Virus record (IMG/VR): IMGVR_UViG_3300025108_000062
Coordinates: 1-55,450 of that record
Length of the DNA stretch: 55,450 bases
Source: a virus
Taxonomy: Duplodnaviria; Caudoviricetes
Reading direction: 5' to 3' (one strand)
Within the stretch, counting starts at the first letter, position 1. Every line of letters starts with the position of its first letter. The position numbers and the translations under genes were made by a program. A model generated the notes under the pieces. The model worked only from the letters and a program-made list of their open reading frames with translations. It had not been told where the DNA came from and ran no database searches. Positions 12,844-19,457 of the stretch are shown here, one piece after another.

Positions 12844-12866
12844 CAGTTTTATACAAAAATGACTTA

Positions 12867-12957
12867 AATCTGTAATACAAATTAAAAAAAGTGCTATTAT
12901 TTAGTAAAAAAGTATTTACAGTGGTCATTTTTTGTGGTAGAATATAATCAGAATCAA
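12867..12957 (+). promoter_or_regulatory. Early promoter cassette with AATCTGTA-W-TACARATT palindrome
   Basis: Palindrome 12867-12883, A-tract, TTTACA 12915, TAGAAT 12938, then ATAATCAGAATCAA. Confidence 0.8.
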
Positions 12958-12975
12958 GGAAAACCCCTTAATAAA

Positions 12976-13089
12976 AGCTCTATAGTTTAAAAAGTAAAAC
13001 ATTCTCCACGACCTCTTCAACCATAAGTCACCGAAACCCCAATGGTTCGGGCGAGAAAAATAAAGGTGCAATTCCTTTTAGAGCAGCCA
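12976..13089 (+). ncRNA. tRNA-like RNA with a 46 nt insert replacing the anticodon loop
   Basis: GCTCTA/TAGAGC acceptor + G-CCA, D-arm GTTT/AAAC, stem TTCTC/GAGAA, T-arm AAAGG-TGCAATT-CCTTT. Confidence 0.6.
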
Positions 13090-13099
13090 ATTTCCCATA

Positions 13100-13207
13100 A
13101 GTAATCAGATGAACACCAGTAATCAGATGAACACCAAAAAAAGCCTATTTTTAGTAAAAAAAGTATTTACAAACTACCCATCGTGTGGTAGAATATAATC
13201 AGAATCA
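13100..13207 (+). promoter_or_regulatory. Early promoter cassette with two tandem 18-bp degenerate TGTTC-N4-GAACA units
   Basis: AGTAATCAGATGAACACC twice (13100-13135); TTTACA 13166; TAGAAT 13189. Confidence 0.8.
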
Positions 13208-13227
13208 AGGAAGAAAGTATATTAGTT

Positions 13228-13467
13228 ATGAAAGAAAATAATAACGAGCAGAAGAAGCAAGTGTTGGAGCATATGGATGAGCTTATGAACTGCTTTACTG
13301 ATAAGCTTAAGGTTCTTGAAGCATTAGATAGTGATAGAGCTTGTAGCGGTTGTGCAGATCTTAATGATCAGCTTGATAGCTTATGGAAGCATCAGACTAA
13401 ACTTAAGCAAGCTATTTACAGAGGTAAGGATGTTGTCCCAAATGATCTCGCTAAACTCTACAGCTAA
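13228..13467 (+). CDS. Hypothetical early protein
   Basis: First ORF after promoter; CSGC motif. Confidence 0.55.
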   Translation: MKENNNEQKKQVLEHMDELMNCFTDKLKVLEALDSDRACSGCADLNDQLDSLWKHQTKLKQAIYRGKDVVPNDLAKLYS

Positions 13468-13489
13468 AGGAACTCAACTATATTACATC

Positions 13490-13690
13490 ATGAAAGAAAA
13501 CAAAAAACTAGAGAACGGACTAACTTGGATTAAAAACCACCTCCTGAACTCCCCACCCCCGCGGGAGGAGCTACACATGCTTGTCAAAGAGGCATCTGAG
13601 AATTTTAAAGTTGATGTAGATCTTATGCGTCGTAAAGCTGAGTCTTCAATTGTTCACACCATTGATTTGAGTAACTTTATCGAGCTCTAA
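13490..13690 (+). CDS. Hypothetical early protein
   Basis: ATG at 13490 within the listed ORF avoids overlap with the previous gene. Confidence 0.5.
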   Translation: MKENKKLENGLTWIKNHLLNSPPPREELHMLVKEASENFKVDVDLMRRKAESSIVHTIDLSNFIEL

Positions 13691-13703
13691 AATAAATTTT
13701 ATT

Positions 13704-13910
13704 ATGTTAAAAGAAAAAATGATTAGAAACTACATTGATTCAGGTGAGCATGTTTTCGTCTCGCTCAAACCATTTGATCCTATTGATGAATCCCTTTCCG
13801 CAGAAGGTGTTATCAAGCGGTTGGATGCGAATGGATGGTTTCAACTTGAATTCATGGGATCAATAAACGGTTACCATATTAGCCAAGTTAAAAGCATTAT
13901 AACAGATTAG
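13704..13910 (+). CDS. Hypothetical early protein
   Basis: 68 aa, TATTATG start. Confidence 0.5.
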   Translation: MLKEKMIRNYIDSGEHVFVSLKPFDPIDESLSAEGVIKRLDANGWFQLEFMGSINGYHISQVKSIITD

Positions 13911-14029
13911 TCAAGTGAGTATAAACACGGTTAAGCGATAGAATAAGACGTAAAATAATGAACTATTGTGGGAGTAAGGGTGCCCTCAGAGAAAGACCCT
14001 CAACTTTAGGAAAACACAAAACAAAATAC

Positions 14030-14153
14030 GGCCCGGTCATTTAACAGGTAAGACCCATCTATATTATACCCAAATCAGTAAAGTGCACTTTACTGTGATG
14101 CGCGCTAGCTAGCGTCTATAGAGGGAATGCAGGTTCGAATCCTGCCCGGGCCT
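14030..14153 (+). ncRNA. tRNA-like RNA with enlarged, hairpin-containing anticodon arm
   Basis: Perfect acceptor GGCCCGG/CCGGGCC, D-loop AACAGGTA, canonical T-arm GCAGG-TTCGAAT-CCTGC, inner stem TCTATA/TATAGA. Confidence 0.7.
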
Positions 14154-14154
14154 G

Positions 14155-14223
14155 CTCCTAGCAATTAACGAGGCGTCAAAGACTTCACGCCTACAACCTG
14201 AAAGGGGGAGGCTAGGTGGGAGT
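14155..14223 (+). ncRNA. Possible structured RNA element
   Basis: CCTAGC/GCTAGG enclosing AGGCGT/ACGCCT and CCT-GAAA-GGG hairpins; GC-rich in AT-rich context. Confidence 0.35.
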
Positions 14224-14237
14224 AAAAAAAATATATT

Positions 14238-14447
14238 ATGAAAAAATCAAATCAAATCAAATCGGCTATTGTCGAGGAAGTAATCCAAGATCTCATCCGC
14301 GAGATCGAAAGTGAACCGGACGATTCTATAGCACTTCCTATTTGGAAAGTCATGATGAGGTTACGTGAAAAATATTGCCCAGTAGACACTACAAACTTTA
14401 TTGAGAAATATGGATCGTATGATAATAAAAAAGCAAACTTTATGTAA
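14238..14447 (+). CDS. Hypothetical protein
   Basis: 69 aa, TATTATG start. Confidence 0.5.
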   Translation: MKKSNQIKSAIVEEVIQDLIREIESEPDDSIALPIWKVMMRLREKYCPVDTTNFIEKYGSYDNKKANFM

Positions 14448-14497
14448 AAAAAGTATTTACAACTGCCATTTTTTATGGTAGAATATATTCAGAATCA
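14445..14497 (+). promoter_or_regulatory. Early promoter cassette
   Basis: AAAAAAGTATTTACA (14456), TAGAAT 14479, CAGAATCAA. Confidence 0.8.
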
Positions 14498-14512
14498 AAA
14501 AAGACTACCACA

Positions 14513-14722
14513 ATGAAAACTGAAAAACCACTTGCCACAATAACTAAAGAAAAAACAGATTACGATAAATTCTTAGAGGAACGTAATGCCGCTCAACTAT
14601 TAAGAGACGAGCTTTGTTGGCTCCTTGGATATATGGATTCCCGCGATGACGTGGTCGTCAGAGATAAACTTAAGAAGGCCTTAAAAGAACACGATGAGAA
14701 CCGATGCCAATCTTGGCTTTAA
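14513..14722 (+). CDS. Hypothetical early protein
   Basis: First ORF after promoter. Confidence 0.5.
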   Translation: MKTEKPLATITKEKTDYDKFLEERNAAQLLRDELCWLLGYMDSRDDVVVRDKLKKALKEHDENRCQSWL

Positions 14723-14728
14723 TATTTT

Positions 14729-15004
14729 ATGAAAGCACATATGAAAAAGCATTATAGCAATAACTATAATAAAACAGTTTCGTGGGATAATGGTTATACG
14801 TGTAATTATAACGAATATTTCCAGGTCGAAAAAATGGAAGATATTGGAATGGTTTACCCTTCTCCGCAATATCTTAAAAACAACAAAGAAACACGTGTAA
14901 CTTTAGGTGGTGGAAATCAAGCATATAGATATGCTACTAATGGAGAAGTCGAGTTCTATGTAGACTTTGAAGCTAAAGCTTTTTGGAGGGAGGATTTTAG
15001 ATGA
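14729..15004 (+). CDS. Hypothetical protein
   Basis: 91 aa ORF in operon. Confidence 0.5.
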   Translation: MKAHMKKHYSNNYNKTVSWDNGYTCNYNEYFQVEKMEDIGMVYPSPQYLKNNKETRVTLGGGNQAYRYATNGEVEFYVDFEAKAFWREDFR

Positions 15005-15127
15005 ATCGCAAAGACAGAGAATTTTTTGAAAATGTCGTATTTGGATGTTTTCTACTTTTAGCGGCTGTAGCATTTATAGCAGTGTTTATAAAACTAATTG
15101 AAAATATTTAACACAAATTATCATATT

Positions 15128-15553
15128 ATGAAAAAAACAATATTACTAGGATTTGGTTTAGCCGTTCCTATTTGGGGAGTTACATTTTGGTCAGCACAAA
15201 ATGCAAAGAGTGTAGAAATCGTAGAAAAGGTAGTGTTGTCTGAACCAGAAAAGGTTGAAGCACACGTCTTTCTAACTAAATGGCAGATTGATAAAATGTC
15301 ATCTTCCTTCAGCGAAGATTCACACCCTTCCGATACCGTTAAATTTAACAGCATTGTTAGAAAAGATGGAAGCGGTTGGAGGATTTCTTCCACACACTTG
15401 GTTAAAGGTTCAGAAAGGTATCCAACACCAAAAGGTCCGTATTACGTGGTTGACTCATCATATGTTGACCACTCGGGAGATTTTAAATCTTGCATCGAAT
15501 ACGCAGATAGCTATAAAGAGTTTCATGATTATATCGTGGTAAGTCCTGAATAA
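15128..15553 (+). CDS. Hypothetical membrane-anchored/secreted protein
   Basis: MKKTILLGFGLAVPIWGVTFW N-terminal hydrophobic segment. Confidence 0.55.
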   Translation: MKKTILLGFGLAVPIWGVTFWSAQNAKSVEIVEKVVLSEPEKVEAHVFLTKWQIDKMSSSFSEDSHPSDTVKFNSIVRKDGSGWRISSTHLVKGSERYPTPKGPYYVVDSSYVDHSGDFKSCIEYADSYKEFHDYIVVSPE

Positions 15554-18221: not shown

Positions 18222-19457
18222 ATGAAAATAATACATATATTAGGCAGAGGGATTGAAGGTTGCGGTGTAACACGATTTACATTAGAAATAAAAAATTGGG
18301 CCTTATCTAAGGGATGGGATTATAAAATTTATGCAACTAAAGATAAGCGTTGGACTCGGGCTAAATCCCACATTTTAGGAGAAAACGTAATTGAACAAAA
18401 ATTTGGCAATAAACCTTCTAGAGGTGATAGTGTTTGCGGCGTTGATAATATCATTGAAGATGCAAAAGATGCTGATATGGTAATTATCGGTTCGCTACCA
18501 TCGAAAGGGCATCCAGATGATTGTATTGAAAACTTTAGTAAGCTTATTAGCAGTATTGATACTAAAGTTGTTATGATTCAACATGATCATAAAATGATGT
18601 CAATCCGTAGGAATGCAGTCCTCGACGAAACAATTAAAAAGGCTGATGTTATATTCTCTTATTCTACAAAGAGTCCTTTTATGAATTATTGCAGAACTGT
18701 TGGAACAAACGCAGCGCTACACAATTTTTGTAATGGGATTGACATTTCAACAATTAAAAATGAGTATTGGAAATCAATTGAAGAGCAAGATGAAAATCAT
18801 TTAAAATGGATCGGCCGTAGTGCGTATTGGAAAGGATTTGATGTTCTTTTTGATTTATATGAAAACAACGCAAAAAACCAAGGTTTTCTTTTTACGTTAG
18901 AAGGAATGGAACGATCAATTCAGTTTGTAGATATACGCAAAAAATACGATTTTCATCATCCAGACAGCGACTTTGGTTTTAATTTAGAATACGACACTAA
19001 GCCATATGTGTTTTCAGCATACAAATACACTGAAATGCTTGAAAGATTATCTAAATGCGCCTTTGGTTTTCAGCTAACATATCTTCAGCCTGAATACATT
19101 CAAAATTTTATTGAATTTACTCACTTAGAAATTGTTGCGGCTGGATGCATTCCAATATTTAGAAAGTCTTATGGCGATCATTGCTATCATTTGCAAACTG
19201 GTAATGCAATGACTGCTGATAACGATAATGGAACAATTTGGCTAGGAGAAGTTGGCTCAGATCACGCACAAAATATGGAGTTAATTAATCAATTAAGAAA
19301 AGATTCTGTAATGCGTGATGAATGGAGACATAAAGCATATGAGTACTATTATTCTCATAATTCGCCTGATTCATCGTTTAATGATTTCTTTAATAAAGTG
19401 AAAAAAACAAATAAAGAAACTAATCGTATTATAAACATCGAAGAATTTTTTGCATAA
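18222..19457 (+). CDS. a-gt: DNA alpha-glucosyltransferase (T4 a-gt homolog)
   Basis: RGIEGCGVTRF, KDK.WTR..SH, QHDH...S.RRN..L.ET...ADVIFS, WIGR...WKG, EG.ERS, EMLER.SK, EFTHLE....G.IP. Confidence 0.88.
   Translation: MKIIHILGRGIEGCGVTRFTLEIKNWALSKGWDYKIYATKDKRWTRAKSHILGENVIEQKFGNKPSRGDSVCGVDNIIEDAKDADMVIIGSLPSKGHPDDCIENFSKLISSIDTKVVMIQHDHKMMSIRRNAVLDETIKKADVIFSYSTKSPFMNYCRTVGTNAALHNFCNGIDISTIKNEYWKSIEEQDENHLKWIGRSAYWKGFDVLFDLYENNAKNQGFLFTLEGMERSIQFVDIRKKYDFHHPDSDFGFNLEYDTKPYVFSAYKYTEMLERLSKCAFGFQLTYLQPEYIQNFIEFTHLEIVAAGCIPIFRKSYGDHCYHLQTGNAMTADNDNGTIWLGEVGSDHAQNMELINQLRKDSVMRDEWRHKAYEYYYSHNSPDSSFNDFFNKVKKTNKETNRIINIEEFFA

What the first reader, a model, noticed from the sequence alone, without database searches (positions are those of the whole stretch)
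14030..14153. tRNA mimic with intact acceptor and T arms but no anticodon loop
Seen: perfect 7-bp acceptor GGCCCGG/CCGGGCC and canonical GCAGG-TTCGAAT-CCTGC. The anticodon arm is extended (TCTATA/TATAGA) and encloses about 50 nt containing the perfect palindrome CAGTAAAGTGCACTTTACTG (14076-14095) and CGCTAGCTAGCG. No CCA is encoded. The insert is too short for a group I intron. Known: T4 makes tRNA-like stable RNAs (species I/II) of unknown function. Inference: an early-expressed RNA processed like a tRNA but non-decoding, possibly a decoy for anticodon nucleases or a ligand for tRNA-sensing defence or stringent-response proteins.
Basis: partly seen in the sequence, partly recalled or inferred. 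Interest (0 to 1): 0.7.

Follow-up and report, generated by a model that had tools for sequence, protein, structure and literature searches.

The report
Anticodon-less phage tRNA look-alike RNA
A marine T4-like phage carries a conserved RNA gene that is built like a tRNA but has no anticodon loop and no CCA end and is always fused to a second small folded RNA, so it cannot decode and most likely serves as a processing and stability handle or a tRNA decoy.

Summary
Window 14030-14153(+) has a 7-bp acceptor stem, a D arm with A14/G18G19/A21, a canonical T arm, and a 9-bp "anticodon" stem bearing two hairpins instead of a loop.

It is not a decayed tRNA. I found 24 distinct variants in 34 sequence contexts on 48 loci of uncultured marine phage contigs. 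The non-coding DNA is about 90% identical where the neighbouring protein is only about 55% identical.

It is not an intron-bearing tRNA. Five relatives are 66-70 nt "short forms" without the insert, and they still have only a 4-nt loop. Two short forms were scanned, and both pass Rfam's tRNA threshold with the anticodon loop deleted. The family is therefore tRNA-derived and non-decoding.

Covariation supports all helices, including the window's palindromic hairpins.

- The element is always followed at once by a near-invariant ~72-nt three-way-junction module (14154-14228) ending in GGGAG.
- All four genuine tRNAs of the window encode CCA, and this element never does.

Best reading, inferred: an RNase P-processed two-domain stable RNA in which the tRNA body acts as handle. 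The rival is an elbow/acceptor decoy.

The family is absent from Rfam. The closest analogues are T4 RNA C and T5 RNA1/2. This scan already noted the same family on another genome (e1-5810517).

The parts
14030..14036 (+). 5' strand of the 7-bp acceptor stem (GGCCCGG)
   Evidence: 7 of 7 pairs are kept in 21 of 24 distinct variants. Compensatory changes occur at pairs 2:71, 5:68 and 7:66.
14039..14054 (+). D arm: stem TTT/AGA (14040-42 / 14051-53) and 8-nt loop AACAGGTA with A14, G18G19, A21
   Evidence: GG is in the D loop in 23 of 24 variants. This arm aligns to the D arm of Rfam tRNA in the short relatives.
14054..14063 (+). 5' strand of the extended 'anticodon' stem (CCC, bulged A14057, TCTATA)
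   Evidence: Helix 3 is 94.9% paired over 9 variants. Pair 27:97 switches C-G / U-A / U-G.
14064..14075 (+). Single-stranded junction of the insert (TTATACCCAAAT)
14076..14095 (+). Insert hairpin 1, a perfect 20-nt palindrome in the window
   Evidence: In relatives it is kept with G-U pairs and double changes (helix 4), so it is an RNA-level helix.
14103..14114 (+). Insert hairpin 2 (CGCT-AGCT-AGCG)
   Evidence: Helix 5 is 100% paired. Pair 80:85 is U-A in 8 variants and A-U in 1. The loop varies (AGCT, CCGG, CATG, CGCG).
14117..14125 (+). 3' strand of the extended stem (TATAGA GGG)
14126..14128 (+). Variable-loop remnant (AAT). The U next to the T stem can form the 15:48 pair with A15.
   Evidence: GAAT or TAAT precedes the T stem in 23 of 24 variants. 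The 15:48 pairing is inferred from tRNA knowledge.
14129..14145 (+). T arm GCAGG-TTCGAAT-CCTGC
   Evidence: The T loop is TTCRA.. in all 24 variants, one of them read one base out of register because of an indel. A-U to G-C compensation is seen in L033 and L063.
14146..14153 (+). 3' strand of the acceptor stem (CCGGGCC) plus discriminator T. No CCA is encoded.
   Evidence: The discriminator is T in 32 and A in 2 of 34 contexts. The next three bases are GCT in 34 of 34.
14154..14228 (+). Downstream partner module (DOWN). Outer helix CCTAGC 14157-62 / GCTAGG 14211-16. Hairpin AGGCGT 14171-76 / ACGCCT 14187-92. Hairpin CCT-GAAA-GGG 14197-14206. Tail TGGGAGTA 14217-24.
   Evidence: It directly follows the discriminator in all 30 model matches. 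The helices are 99-100% paired, and 3 of 6 outer-helix pairs are compensated. RNAalifold offers an alternative outer helix that shows no covariation.
13911..14005 (+). Upstream ultraconserved module (UP). It is separable from the tRNA-like unit, so probably not part of it.
   Evidence: It stands alone in L017 and is separated from the unit by an ORF in L012 and L026. It has no thermodynamic signal (z +0.74).
13166..13194 (+). Nearest upstream sigma-70-like promoter (TTTACA-N17-TAGAAT). It would drive read-through into the element in the window.
   Evidence: No promoter-like site lies directly before the window copy. That it drives the element is inferred.

Best explanation
What it is (shown): a conserved, tRNA-derived RNA domain that keeps the parts of a tRNA that make the L-shape and the acceptor end, namely the 7-bp acceptor stem, the D arm with G18G19 and the T arm. 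The anticodon loop has been lost. The anticodon arm is a 4-5 bp stub, and the window's lineage has grown a two-hairpin expansion of about 58 nt at its tip. The domain is fused, with no spacer, to a near-invariant ~72-nt three-way-junction domain that ends in a GGGAG tail.

How it most likely works (inferred):
1. The unit is transcribed either from its own promoter 14-15 nt upstream, or, as in the window, by read-through inside an early polycistronic RNA.
2. Host RNase P recognises the acceptor/T-arm/elbow and cuts between C14029 and G14030.
3. Because no CCA and no AU-rich trailer follow, and the structured partner domain starts at once, the 3' side is not matured into a chargeable end.
4. The product is a stable two-domain small RNA. 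Its tRNA body acts as a processing and stability handle: it gives a defined, base-paired 5' end and an exonuclease-resistant fold.
5. The invariant downstream domain with its GGGAG tail is the working part. Its target is unknown.
For: Conservation:
- The intergenic DNA is about 90% identical to relatives whose flanking protein is 51-57% identical.
- I found 24 distinct variants in 34 contexts on 48 loci.

Covariation:
- Over 29 distinct rows, 95.8% of cells pair. 10 of 35 pairs change on both sides, against 2.3 +/- 1.0 in shuffles (0 of 500 reach it). Slid controls pair at 33-52%.
- For the window-type alignment of 9 variants: 95.8% paired, and 8 of 35 pairs change on both sides against 3.0 +/- 1.3.

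tRNA ancestry and loss of decoding:
- The short forms L033 and L022 score 43.8 and 34.9 bits on Rfam tRNA (threshold 29). They align over model positions 1-71 but have 3 or 0 nt where 6-7 loop positions belong.

Elbow kept:
- GG is in the D loop in 23 of 24 variants, TTCRA is in the T loop in all, and the acceptor is 7 of 7 paired in 21 of 24.

Not built to be charged:
- 0 of 34 contexts encode CCA, while 4 of 4 genuine tRNAs in the window do.

Fused partner:
- All 30 matches to the model span both domains.

Transcription and processing context:
- 18 of 34 contexts have GAAC-N4-7-TAnAAT ending 14-15 nt before G1. 16 of 34, including the window, do not, so the same mature 5' end needs processing.
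- The base at -1 is a pyrimidine in 33 of 34 contexts.

Free anticodon arm:
- The arm varies freely: a stub, or one of four insert types, 66-141 nt overall. This fits a role that needs only what RNase P grips (recalled knowledge of RNase P recognition).
Against: - No RNA ends, no cleavage and no stability have been measured. The RNA-library evidence is contigs only, and DNA carry-over cannot be excluded.
- A bare processing signal would not need such a strictly conserved acceptor sequence, nor an intact D arm. The inserts themselves keep their structure within a lineage, which hints at a function of their own.
- 22 positions of the leader, 5' acceptor strand and D arm were fixed by my metagenome search pattern, so part of the apparent conservation there is by construction. 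The two members found through the partner domain, L056 and L063, do vary at those positions.
- The job of the partner domain is unknown.
- If the host has RNase Z and a CCA-adding enzyme, the tRNA body could be released and CCA-tailed after all.
Confidence: 0.45

Rival explanations
1. tRNA decoy or sponge. The L-shaped body, alone or with its partner domain, binds and titrates a host or phage factor that reads the tRNA elbow or acceptor end and not the anticodon. Candidates are RNase P, CCA-adding enzyme, EF-Tu, an acceptor-end-modifying toxin of a defence system, or a ribosomal tRNA site.
For: - The elbow and acceptor are kept in nearly all variants, and the fold is supported by covariation.
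- Relatives carry, 0.1-1.2 kb away, TLD-only mini-tmRNAs. A molecule of that kind is reported to inhibit tmRNA, perhaps by titrating SmpB (passage of PMC4131195). Decoy RNAs therefore seem to be part of this lineage's repertoire.
- T4 RNA C and T5 RNA1/RNA2 show that phages keep such RNAs.
Against: - No target is known.
- The 3' end is not free unless it is cut after the discriminator, and no CCA is encoded. Enzymes acting on the CCA end would therefore need extra processing steps.
- It cannot mimic a substrate of anticodon nucleases, because there is no anticodon loop.
Confidence: 0.25
2. Chargeable non-ribosomal carrier. After cleavage at the discriminator and CCA addition, the RNA is aminoacylated by a synthetase that ignores the anticodon, and it donates the amino acid outside translation or enters the ribosome like a tmRNA.
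For: - The acceptor helix and T arm are intact, and the discriminator is conserved (T in 32 of 34 contexts).
- tmRNA-like TLD-only genes in relatives show interest in ribosome rescue.
Against: - No CCA is encoded in 0 of 34 contexts, whereas 4 of 4 true tRNAs of the window and the TLD-only RNAs of relatives encode it.
- There is no G3:U70; pair 3:70 is C-G.
- U73 is not the discriminator used by the anticodon-independent Ala, Ser and Leu systems (recalled).
- The partner domain starts directly after the discriminator.
Confidence: 0.05
3. Decaying tRNA pseudogene disrupted by an insertion. The palindromes would be a DNA-level mobile or protein-binding insert flanked by a TCTATA duplication.
For: - The insert sits between two TCTATA copies. 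The short forms have one copy, which looks like a target-site duplication.
- The hairpins are perfect palindromes in the window.
- One degenerate second copy exists in L048, with the D-loop GG lost and an acceptor mismatch.
Against: - The family is more conserved than the neighbouring proteins.
- The short forms without the insert also lack an anticodon loop.
- The insert hairpins are kept through G-U pairs and double changes in relatives, which DNA palindromes would not tolerate.
- TCTATA / TATAGA is also simply the two strands of the extended stem.
Confidence: 0.03
4. Intron-containing tRNA that is spliced to a normal decoding tRNA.
For: The insert lies where tRNA introns lie. A joint skipping 61 nt was seen in one contig of an RNA library.
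Against: - That joint equals the genomic short form found in DNA contigs (L022, L041, L044). It is a relative, not a splice product.
- Removing the insert leaves a 4-nt loop.
- About 58 nt is far too short for a group I intron (recalled).
- ARAGORN finds no tRNA here or in 10 related loci.
Confidence: 0.02

Closest known systems
Phage T4 RNA C (species 1 RNA, rnaC) next to RNA D
   Same: It is a stable phage RNA of a T4-type phage. Folding gives an acceptor-like 7-bp stem, a canonical T arm (CCGGG-UUCGAAU-CCCGG) and two hairpins in place of the D and anticodon arms, with no anticodon. Its role is unknown (passage of PMC3014915).
   Different: - No detectable homology: my model gives only a 6.8-bit local T-arm match.
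- T4 RNA C has two U-U mismatches in the acceptor stem and no recognisable D arm.
- It lies in the tRNA cluster.
- No counterpart of the fused downstream domain was seen.
Phage T5 RNA1 and RNA2 (annotated 'tRNA-like stable RNA with unknown functions')
   Same: Acceptor stem, D-like arm, T arm and an enlarged central region instead of an anticodon arm.
   Different: - They score 8 bits on my model, below ordinary tRNAs at 21-24 bits.
- They come from a different phage family.
- They are not fused to the partner domain.
Ordinary tRNA (Rfam RF00005)
   Same: The short relatives align end to end and pass the family threshold (43.8 and 34.9 bits). The acceptor, D, T and variable regions are all present.
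   Different: - It has no 7-nt anticodon loop.
- It has no encoded CCA, although the phage's real tRNAs have it.
- The window copy itself does not reach the threshold (14.9 bits).
- ARAGORN rejects it.
tRNA-like processing handles: MALAT1/mascRNA, gammaherpesvirus tRNA-miRNA units, plant mitochondrial t-elements (recalled, not read here)
   Same: These are tRNA-shaped, non-decoding modules whose job is to recruit RNase P or RNase Z and so define the ends of a neighbouring RNA. mascRNA also has a stunted anticodon arm.
   Different: - They are eukaryotic or organellar systems.
- The Rfam mascRNA model gives only 21.1 bits against a threshold of 42.5 on L033.
- Cleavage has not been shown here.
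TLD-only mini-tmRNA (as in mycobacteriophage DS6A) and tmRNA
   Same: It is an anticodon-less tRNA mimic encoded by a phage. Such genes lie 0.1-1.2 kb from the element in relatives and pass or nearly pass the Rfam tmRNA model (62.3, 58.7 and 45.7 bits against a threshold of 47). The DS6A precedent comes from passages of PMC4131195.
   Different: The element has a true D stem and G18G19, C3-G70 instead of G3:U70, a U discriminator and no CCA. It gives no tmRNA hit.
YrlA / bacterial Y RNA (Rfam RF02553)
   Same: tRNA mimic without an anticodon.
   Different: YrlA is circularly permuted: the acceptor is closed by a loop and the ends lie at the Ro-binding stem. Here the topology is that of a normal tRNA. 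The score is 15.6 bits against a threshold of 69. No Ro60-like gene was seen among the 40 window proteins I scanned.

Membership tests
tRNA (Rfam RF00005, decoding tRNA) | 7-bp acceptor stem stacked on a 5-bp T stem with a TTCRA T loop | tested here: met
.
tRNA (Rfam RF00005, decoding tRNA) | D arm with A14, G18G19, A21 | tested here: met
   GG is kept in 23 of 24 variants.
tRNA (Rfam RF00005, decoding tRNA) | Score at or above the curated threshold (29 bits) | tested here: inconclusive
   The window copy gets only a 14.9-bit local T-arm match and is absent at gathering threshold. The short relatives L033 and L022 score 43.8 and 34.9 bits.
tRNA (Rfam RF00005, decoding tRNA) | 5-bp anticodon stem closed by a 7-nt loop with an anticodon | tested here: not met
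   The window has a 9-bp stem plus two hairpins. The short forms have 4-nt loops. ARAGORN makes no call.
tRNA (Rfam RF00005, decoding tRNA) | 3' CCA, encoded or added | tested here: not met
   Encoded CCA is found in 0 of 34 contexts, against 4 of 4 real tRNAs of the window. Post-transcriptional addition is not testable with these tools.
Intron-containing tRNA | Removing the intervening sequence restores a normal anticodon arm | tested here: not met
   Natural insert-less relatives have a 4-nt loop.
tmRNA / TLD-only tmRNA | G3:U70, no D stem, GGxUUCGAC-type D loop, encoded CCA, match to RF00023 | tested here: not met
   The element has C3-G70, a real D stem and no CCA, and gives no RF00023 hit. 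Neighbouring genes in relatives do meet these features.
YrlA (RF02553) | Permuted tRNA-like module on a Ro-binding stem; score of at least 69 bits | tested here: not met
   15.6 bits, E 2.2, and a different topology.
T4 RNA C / T5 RNA1-2 type 'tRNA-like stable RNAs' | Sequence or structure homology to those RNAs (no curated model exists) | tested here: not met
   Model R1 gives 6.8 bits on T4 rnaC and 8 bits on T5 RNA1 and RNA2. Only the architecture is alike.
T4 RNA C / T5 RNA1-2 type 'tRNA-like stable RNAs' | Accumulates as a discrete stable RNA in infected cells | not testable with these tools
   Only contigs of RNA libraries were available.
tRNA-like processing handle (mascRNA / t-element type) | Cut by RNase P at the 5' side and/or RNase Z at the 3' side, releasing the neighbouring RNA | not testable with these tools
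   The anatomy is compatible. The Rfam mascRNA model gives 21.1 bits against a threshold of 42.5.

The most novel reading that the evidence does not exclude
The two domains together are a ribosome-directed RNA, a 'tRNA plus Shine-Dalgarno' mimic. The L-shaped body would dock in a ribosomal tRNA site or at an elbow-binding site. The invariant GGGAG tail, which can alternatively pair with the GCUCC next to the discriminator, would bind the anti-Shine-Dalgarno sequence. The phage could thus park, mark or re-programme host ribosomes early in infection. In this reading the RNA is a sister device to the TLD-only mini-tmRNAs that its relatives encode nearby.
Probability: 0.07. Interest if true: 0.85.

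Novelty: new variant of a known kind. Interest (0 to 1): 0.55.

Why it matters
Phage 'tRNA-like stable RNAs' (T4 RNA C and D, T5 RNA1 and RNA2) have had no known function for about fifty years. This family offers a cleaner case:
- The tRNA ancestry is provable.
- The anticodon loop is cleanly deleted.
- CCA is specifically absent although the phage's real tRNAs have it.
- A fixed partner domain is attached.

It therefore says which tRNA features the function needs (elbow and acceptor helix) and which it does not (anticodon, chargeable end). It also gives direct tests: RNase P cleavage, 3'-end mapping and pull-down.

It is also a practical warning. tRNA finders miss these genes, and the intergenic region would be left unannotated.

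The weight is limited for three reasons:
- The function remains inferred.
- The host is uncultured.
- This scan had already noted the same family on another genome.

Tried and rejected
Searches that found nothing:
- Megablast of 13000-15500 against 50,697 phage records gave no match.
- blastn of the region and of a short form gave only T-arm-sized hits, with 0 records covering 80% or more.
- Two exact-pattern scans of 185,579 prokaryote genomes gave 0 hits.
- The exact 24-mer scan of viral contigs found only an unrelated GC-rich phage, L004.
- The protein downstream of the element (14238-14447) has no relatives by the search for related loci.
- The 16-mer of the partner domain gave 10 chance hits among 12 new loci.
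- The closest deposited phage by DNA polymerase, C48C1 (48% identity), lacks the element. Its only match is a 23.8-bit tRNA-like hit. L022 could not be searched there because it is not held.

RNA-library contigs:
- Four runs hold relatives of UP, the element and DOWN, including a short form.
- Contigs cannot show transcription, ends or strand. The lack of cover over the flanking genes is expected from sequence divergence, so I draw no conclusion from it.

Protein partner:
- Pfam or PHROGs scans of 40 window proteins found the T4-type replication set but no RNA ligase, CCA-adding enzyme, Ro60, SmpB or synthetase-like protein. The window is about a third of the genome, so this says little.
- At least six unrelated small ORFs follow the unit in different relatives, so there is no constant protein neighbour.

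Other points:
- Rejected: UP as part of the unit. It occurs alone and apart from the unit.
- Unresolved: the alternative outer helix UGCUCCUA:UGGGAGUA is 97.8% pairable but shows no covariation.
- Ancestral isotype: not recoverable.
- One slip: the structure string was one character too long. It was corrected.
Full report
**1.

- GGCCCGG (14030-14036) pairs with CCGGGCC (14146-14152).
- The T arm GCAGG-TTCGAAT-CCTGC lies at 14129-14145, and the discriminator T at 14153.
- No CCA follows; the next bases are GCT.
- The long stem is CCC-(A)-TCTATA / TATAGA-GGG.
- The two palindromes at 14076-14095 and 14103-14114 hit themselves on the opposite strand at 100%.

The RNA folds at -44.7 kcal/mol, against -31.2 +/- 3.5 for 200 shuffles, and none of the shuffles reaches it. 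ARAGORN finds four ordinary tRNAs in the window but not this element. Rfam at gathering threshold finds the same four only. At relaxed threshold the element gives only T-arm-sized matches: tRNA 14.9 bits and YrlA 15.6 bits, E 2.2.

**2. Where it sits**

The window is a 55,450-base virus record estimated at about 32% of a genome. It carries the T4-type replication set:
- late sigma factor, gp46/47-like nuclease, clamp and clamp loader, RegA-like repressor;
- family-B DNA polymerase, UvsX, helicase, ribonucleotide reductase.

The polymerase is at most 48% identical to any deposited phage. The best hit is Phage C48C1 (Kyanoviridae), followed by Synechococcus T4-like phages at about 45%.

All genes run on the + strand. 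The window has 15 copies of TTTACA-N17-TA(G/T)AAT. The one at 13166-13194 is the nearest upstream of the element, and the next is at 14456. In the window the element therefore lies inside a run of small early-type ORFs with no promoter of its own.

**3. It is a family, not a relic**

Relatives were reached in four ways:
- through the 68-aa protein upstream (7 loci, one at 94% and six at 51-57% protein identity);
- through exact or IUPAC patterns in viral contigs;
- through a pattern in metagenome contigs (32 loci);
- through a 16-mer of the downstream domain (2 new members among 12 new loci, the other 10 being chance hits).

The non-coding stretch 13911-14237 is about 90% identical to relatives whose flanking protein is only about 55% identical.

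Altogether I hold 24 distinct element sequences in 34 distinct contexts on 48 loci. Many loci are the same contig fetched from two collections.

A caveat applies. The metagenome pattern fixed 22 bases of the leader, 5' acceptor strand and D arm, so invariance there is partly by construction. The two members found through the downstream domain, L056 and L063, do differ there (A2, U5, A7, D loop), and each acceptor change is matched on the other strand, except for one C-A mismatch in L056.

**4. The key relatives are short forms**

Five distinct variants (on L022, L029, L033, L041, L044) are only 66-70 nt long. They have an acceptor stem, a D arm, a 4-5 bp hairpin closed by a 4-nt loop (UAUA or CGCA), 4 nt of variable loop, and a T arm.

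Rfam's tRNA model aligns two of them end to end, over model positions 1-71, at 43.8 and 34.9 bits (threshold 29). Only 3 or 0 nucleotides stand where the 6-7 loop positions belong.

This gives three results:
- The family descends from a tRNA.
- Its defining change is loss of the anticodon loop.
- The window's insert is not an intron, because natural insert-less copies still cannot decode.

The longer forms carry one of four insert types at the tip of the stub:
- the window type, 122-126 nt;
- a 110-nt type;
- a 102-nt type;
- a 97-nt type.

There is also one degenerate 141-nt second copy in L048.

The window's insert lies between two TCTATA copies, where the short forms have one. This could be read as a target-site duplication. 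But TCTATA / TATAGA is also simply the two strands of the lengthened stem.

**5. Structure is under selection**

I built a covariance model from the five short forms plus the downstream domain. It matched 30 places in the 29 sources I gave it, each across both domains. I left out loci that repeat the same contigs, and truncated copies.

On that alignment:
- 95.8% of 1,012 cells form standard pairs.
- 10 of 35 pairs show changes on both sides, against 2.3 +/- 1.0 in shuffles (0 of 500 reach it).
- Slid registers pair at only 33-52%.

The alignment is fitted to the model, which favours the structure somewhat.

An ordinary MAFFT alignment of 9 window-type variants was also tested against my hand-written structure. 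The degenerate L048 copy and two truncated copies were left out. It gives 95.8% paired, with 8 of 35 pairs changing on both sides, against 3.0 +/- 1.3 (0 of 500).

Hairpin 1, a perfect palindrome in the window, is kept in relatives through many G-U pairs and through A-U to G-C swaps. Hairpin 2 shows a U-A to A-U swap. These are RNA helices, not DNA-level palindromes.

RNAalifold on the short forms recovers the cloverleaf on its own.

Across variants:
- The acceptor is 7 of 7 paired in 21 of 24.
- GG is in the D loop in 23 of 24.
- The T loop is TTCRA.. in all, one of them read one base out of register because of an indel.
- GAAT or TAAT precedes the T stem in 23 of 24.

Everything needed for the L-shape and its elbow is kept. 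That these bases make the elbow contacts is tRNA knowledge, not tested here.

**6.

First, the discriminator is always followed at once by a ~72-nt module (window 14154-14228). It has:
- an outer helix CCUAGC / GCUAGG;
- a 6-bp hairpin with a 10-nt loop;
- a CCY-GNRA-like-GGG hairpin;
- a tail UGGGAGUA.

The module is almost invariant. The outer helix is compensated at 3 of 6 pairs; L012 reads CUUGGA / UCCAAG.

RNAalifold proposes a competing helix between the GCUCCUA next to the discriminator and the GGGAGU tail. It is pairable in 97.8% of cells but shows no covariation. A two-state fold is possible but not shown.

Second, the four genuine tRNAs of the window all encode CCA followed by T-rich sequence. 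None of the 34 contexts of this element encodes CCA. The phage writes CCA where it wants a chargeable end, and it does not write it here.

**7. Transcription context**

- In 18 of 34 contexts a GAAC-N4-7-TAnAAT motif ends 14-15 nt before G1. In 16 of 34, the window included, it is absent and the element follows an ORF or the UP module.
- The base before G1 is a pyrimidine in 33 of 34 contexts.
- After the tail comes another promoter-like site in 16 contexts. In 9 contexts an ATG lies 6-13 nt after GGGAG, and the rest have other arrangements.
- The next ORF belongs to at least six unrelated small-protein families. There is no constant protein partner, and the unit behaves as a self-contained cassette in a hyperplastic region.

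**8. Expression**

Contigs from four RNA-library runs hold relatives of UP, the element and DOWN. One carries a short form joined to UP and the start of DOWN. Another spans 14023-14227. Contigs cannot show transcription, strand or ends, and DNA may be present in such libraries. I count this only as compatible.

**9. What it most likely does**

Shown: a tRNA-derived, non-decoding, structurally constrained domain, fused to a constrained partner domain, restricted so far to uncultured marine T4-like phages.

Inferred: RNase P sets the 5' end at G14030, both in copies with their own promoter and in read-through copies. With no CCA, no AU-rich trailer and a folded domain starting at once, the 3' side is probably not matured. 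The product would then be a two-domain stable RNA whose tRNA body is a processing and stability handle for the invariant partner. I put this at about 0.45.

The pattern of constraint fits: what RNase P grips is kept, and the anticodon arm is free to shrink or grow. It fits a decoy for any factor that reads the elbow or acceptor about equally well, which I put at about 0.25.

The other readings score low:
- a chargeable carrier: about 0.05;
- a pseudogene: about 0.03;
- a spliced tRNA: about 0.02.

**10. Comparison with what is known**

- T4 RNA C folds as an acceptor-like stem (two U-U mismatches), a T arm and two hairpins. A review passage says the roles of RNA C and RNA D are unknown (PMC3014915).
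- T5 RNA1 and RNA2 are annotated 'tRNA-like stable RNA with unknown functions' and fold similarly.
- My model scores these RNAs at 6.8-8 bits, below ordinary tRNAs. The likeness is of kind, not of descent.
- YrlA has a permuted topology and does not match.
- mascRNA, herpesvirus tRNA-miRNA units and plant mitochondrial t-elements are functional analogues recalled from memory.

**11. Is it in print?**

Six full-text searches turned up no description of this family. I read passages only, from six papers:
- PMC10690425;
- PMC3014915;
- PMC4131195;
- PMC13434031 and PMC12282133;
- PMC9004378.

PMC10690425 reports 8,495 candidate structured RNAs from IMG/VR, some of them tRNA-like. Its supplementary tables could hold this motif, and I could not open them.

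This scan itself noted the same family earlier on another genome (e1-5810517), with the same closest relatives. Other notes list unrelated anticodon-less tRNA mimics in other phages. The theme is recurrent, and this window adds a further member, not a first sighting.

**12. Verdict**

A real feature: a new variant of the known but unexplained kind 'phage tRNA-like stable RNA'. Interest 0.55.

Noticed in passing
L017:13880-13942(+), L023:5762-5826(+), L033:4160-4224(+), L044:2287-2351(+), L039:2889-2951(-), also L045, L037, L040, L011:1227-~1290(+): Relatives of the window's phage encode 63-65 nt 'TLD-only' mini-tmRNAs. These have an acceptor with G3:U70, a tmRNA-type D loop, a T arm and an encoded CCA, with the whole mRNA-like part replaced by a tetraloop hairpin. 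They score 62.3, 58.7 and 45.7 bits on Rfam tmRNA (threshold 47) and lie 0.1-1.2 kb from the tRNA-like unit. ARAGORN misses them. None was found in the window itself by a motif search.
   Followed up: partly
window 13911-14005 (+): This is an almost invariant ~95-nt non-coding module (GTCAAGTGAG...CCCTCAGAGAAAGACCCT) that shares GTGGGAGTAA with the tail of the downstream domain. In relatives it starts right after a promoter-like site, can stand alone before an ORF (L017), or is separated from the tRNA-like unit by a small ORF (L012, L026). It has no thermodynamic fold signal (z +0.74) and too little variation for covariation. A frame-breaking indel in L023 argues against a conserved peptide.
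   Followed up: partly
window 12844-13227 (+): A 380-nt gap without an ORF of 40 aa or more lies between two strong promoter-like sites (12915, 13166). It contains a tandem direct repeat AGTAATCAGATGAACACC x2 and a GC-rich hairpin region. It may be another small RNA.
   Followed up: no
window, 15 sites (e.g. 4155, 12915, 13166, 14456, 48156, 48534, 48746, 49712): There are 15 copies of TTTACA-N17-TA(G/T)AAT, often with a shared spacer. They look like the early promoter set of this phage. The relatives with other insert types instead use GGAACT-N4-5-TATAAT before small ORFs and RNA genes.
   Followed up: partly
L048: 599-798(-) and 189-329(-): Two copies of the tRNA-like plus partner unit lie about 350 nt apart on one contig. 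The second has lost the D-loop GG, has an acceptor mismatch and carries a larger insert. It appears to be a decaying paralogue.
   Followed up: partly
L040: reverse-strand positions ~1318-1360 and 1486-1607: A 5' fragment of the element (acceptor 5' strand, D arm, start of the stem) is followed by a fresh copy of the UP module and then a complete element. This looks like a recombination scar within the stub.
   Followed up: no
L004:2150-2750(-): An unrelated GC-rich viral contig shares the exact 24-nt T-arm and acceptor string. It shows a run of tRNA-like 3' halves separated by about 100-nt GC-rich spacers with recurring motifs. ARAGORN's calls there look forced.
   Followed up: no
window 18222-19457 (+): The PHROGs hit is to an alpha-glucosyltransferase (E 2.8e-74). 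It lies near a ThyX-like ORF and a thymidylate-synthase/hydroxymethylase-like ORF that I did not scan. This suggests modified, possibly glucosylated, DNA as in T4.
   Followed up: no
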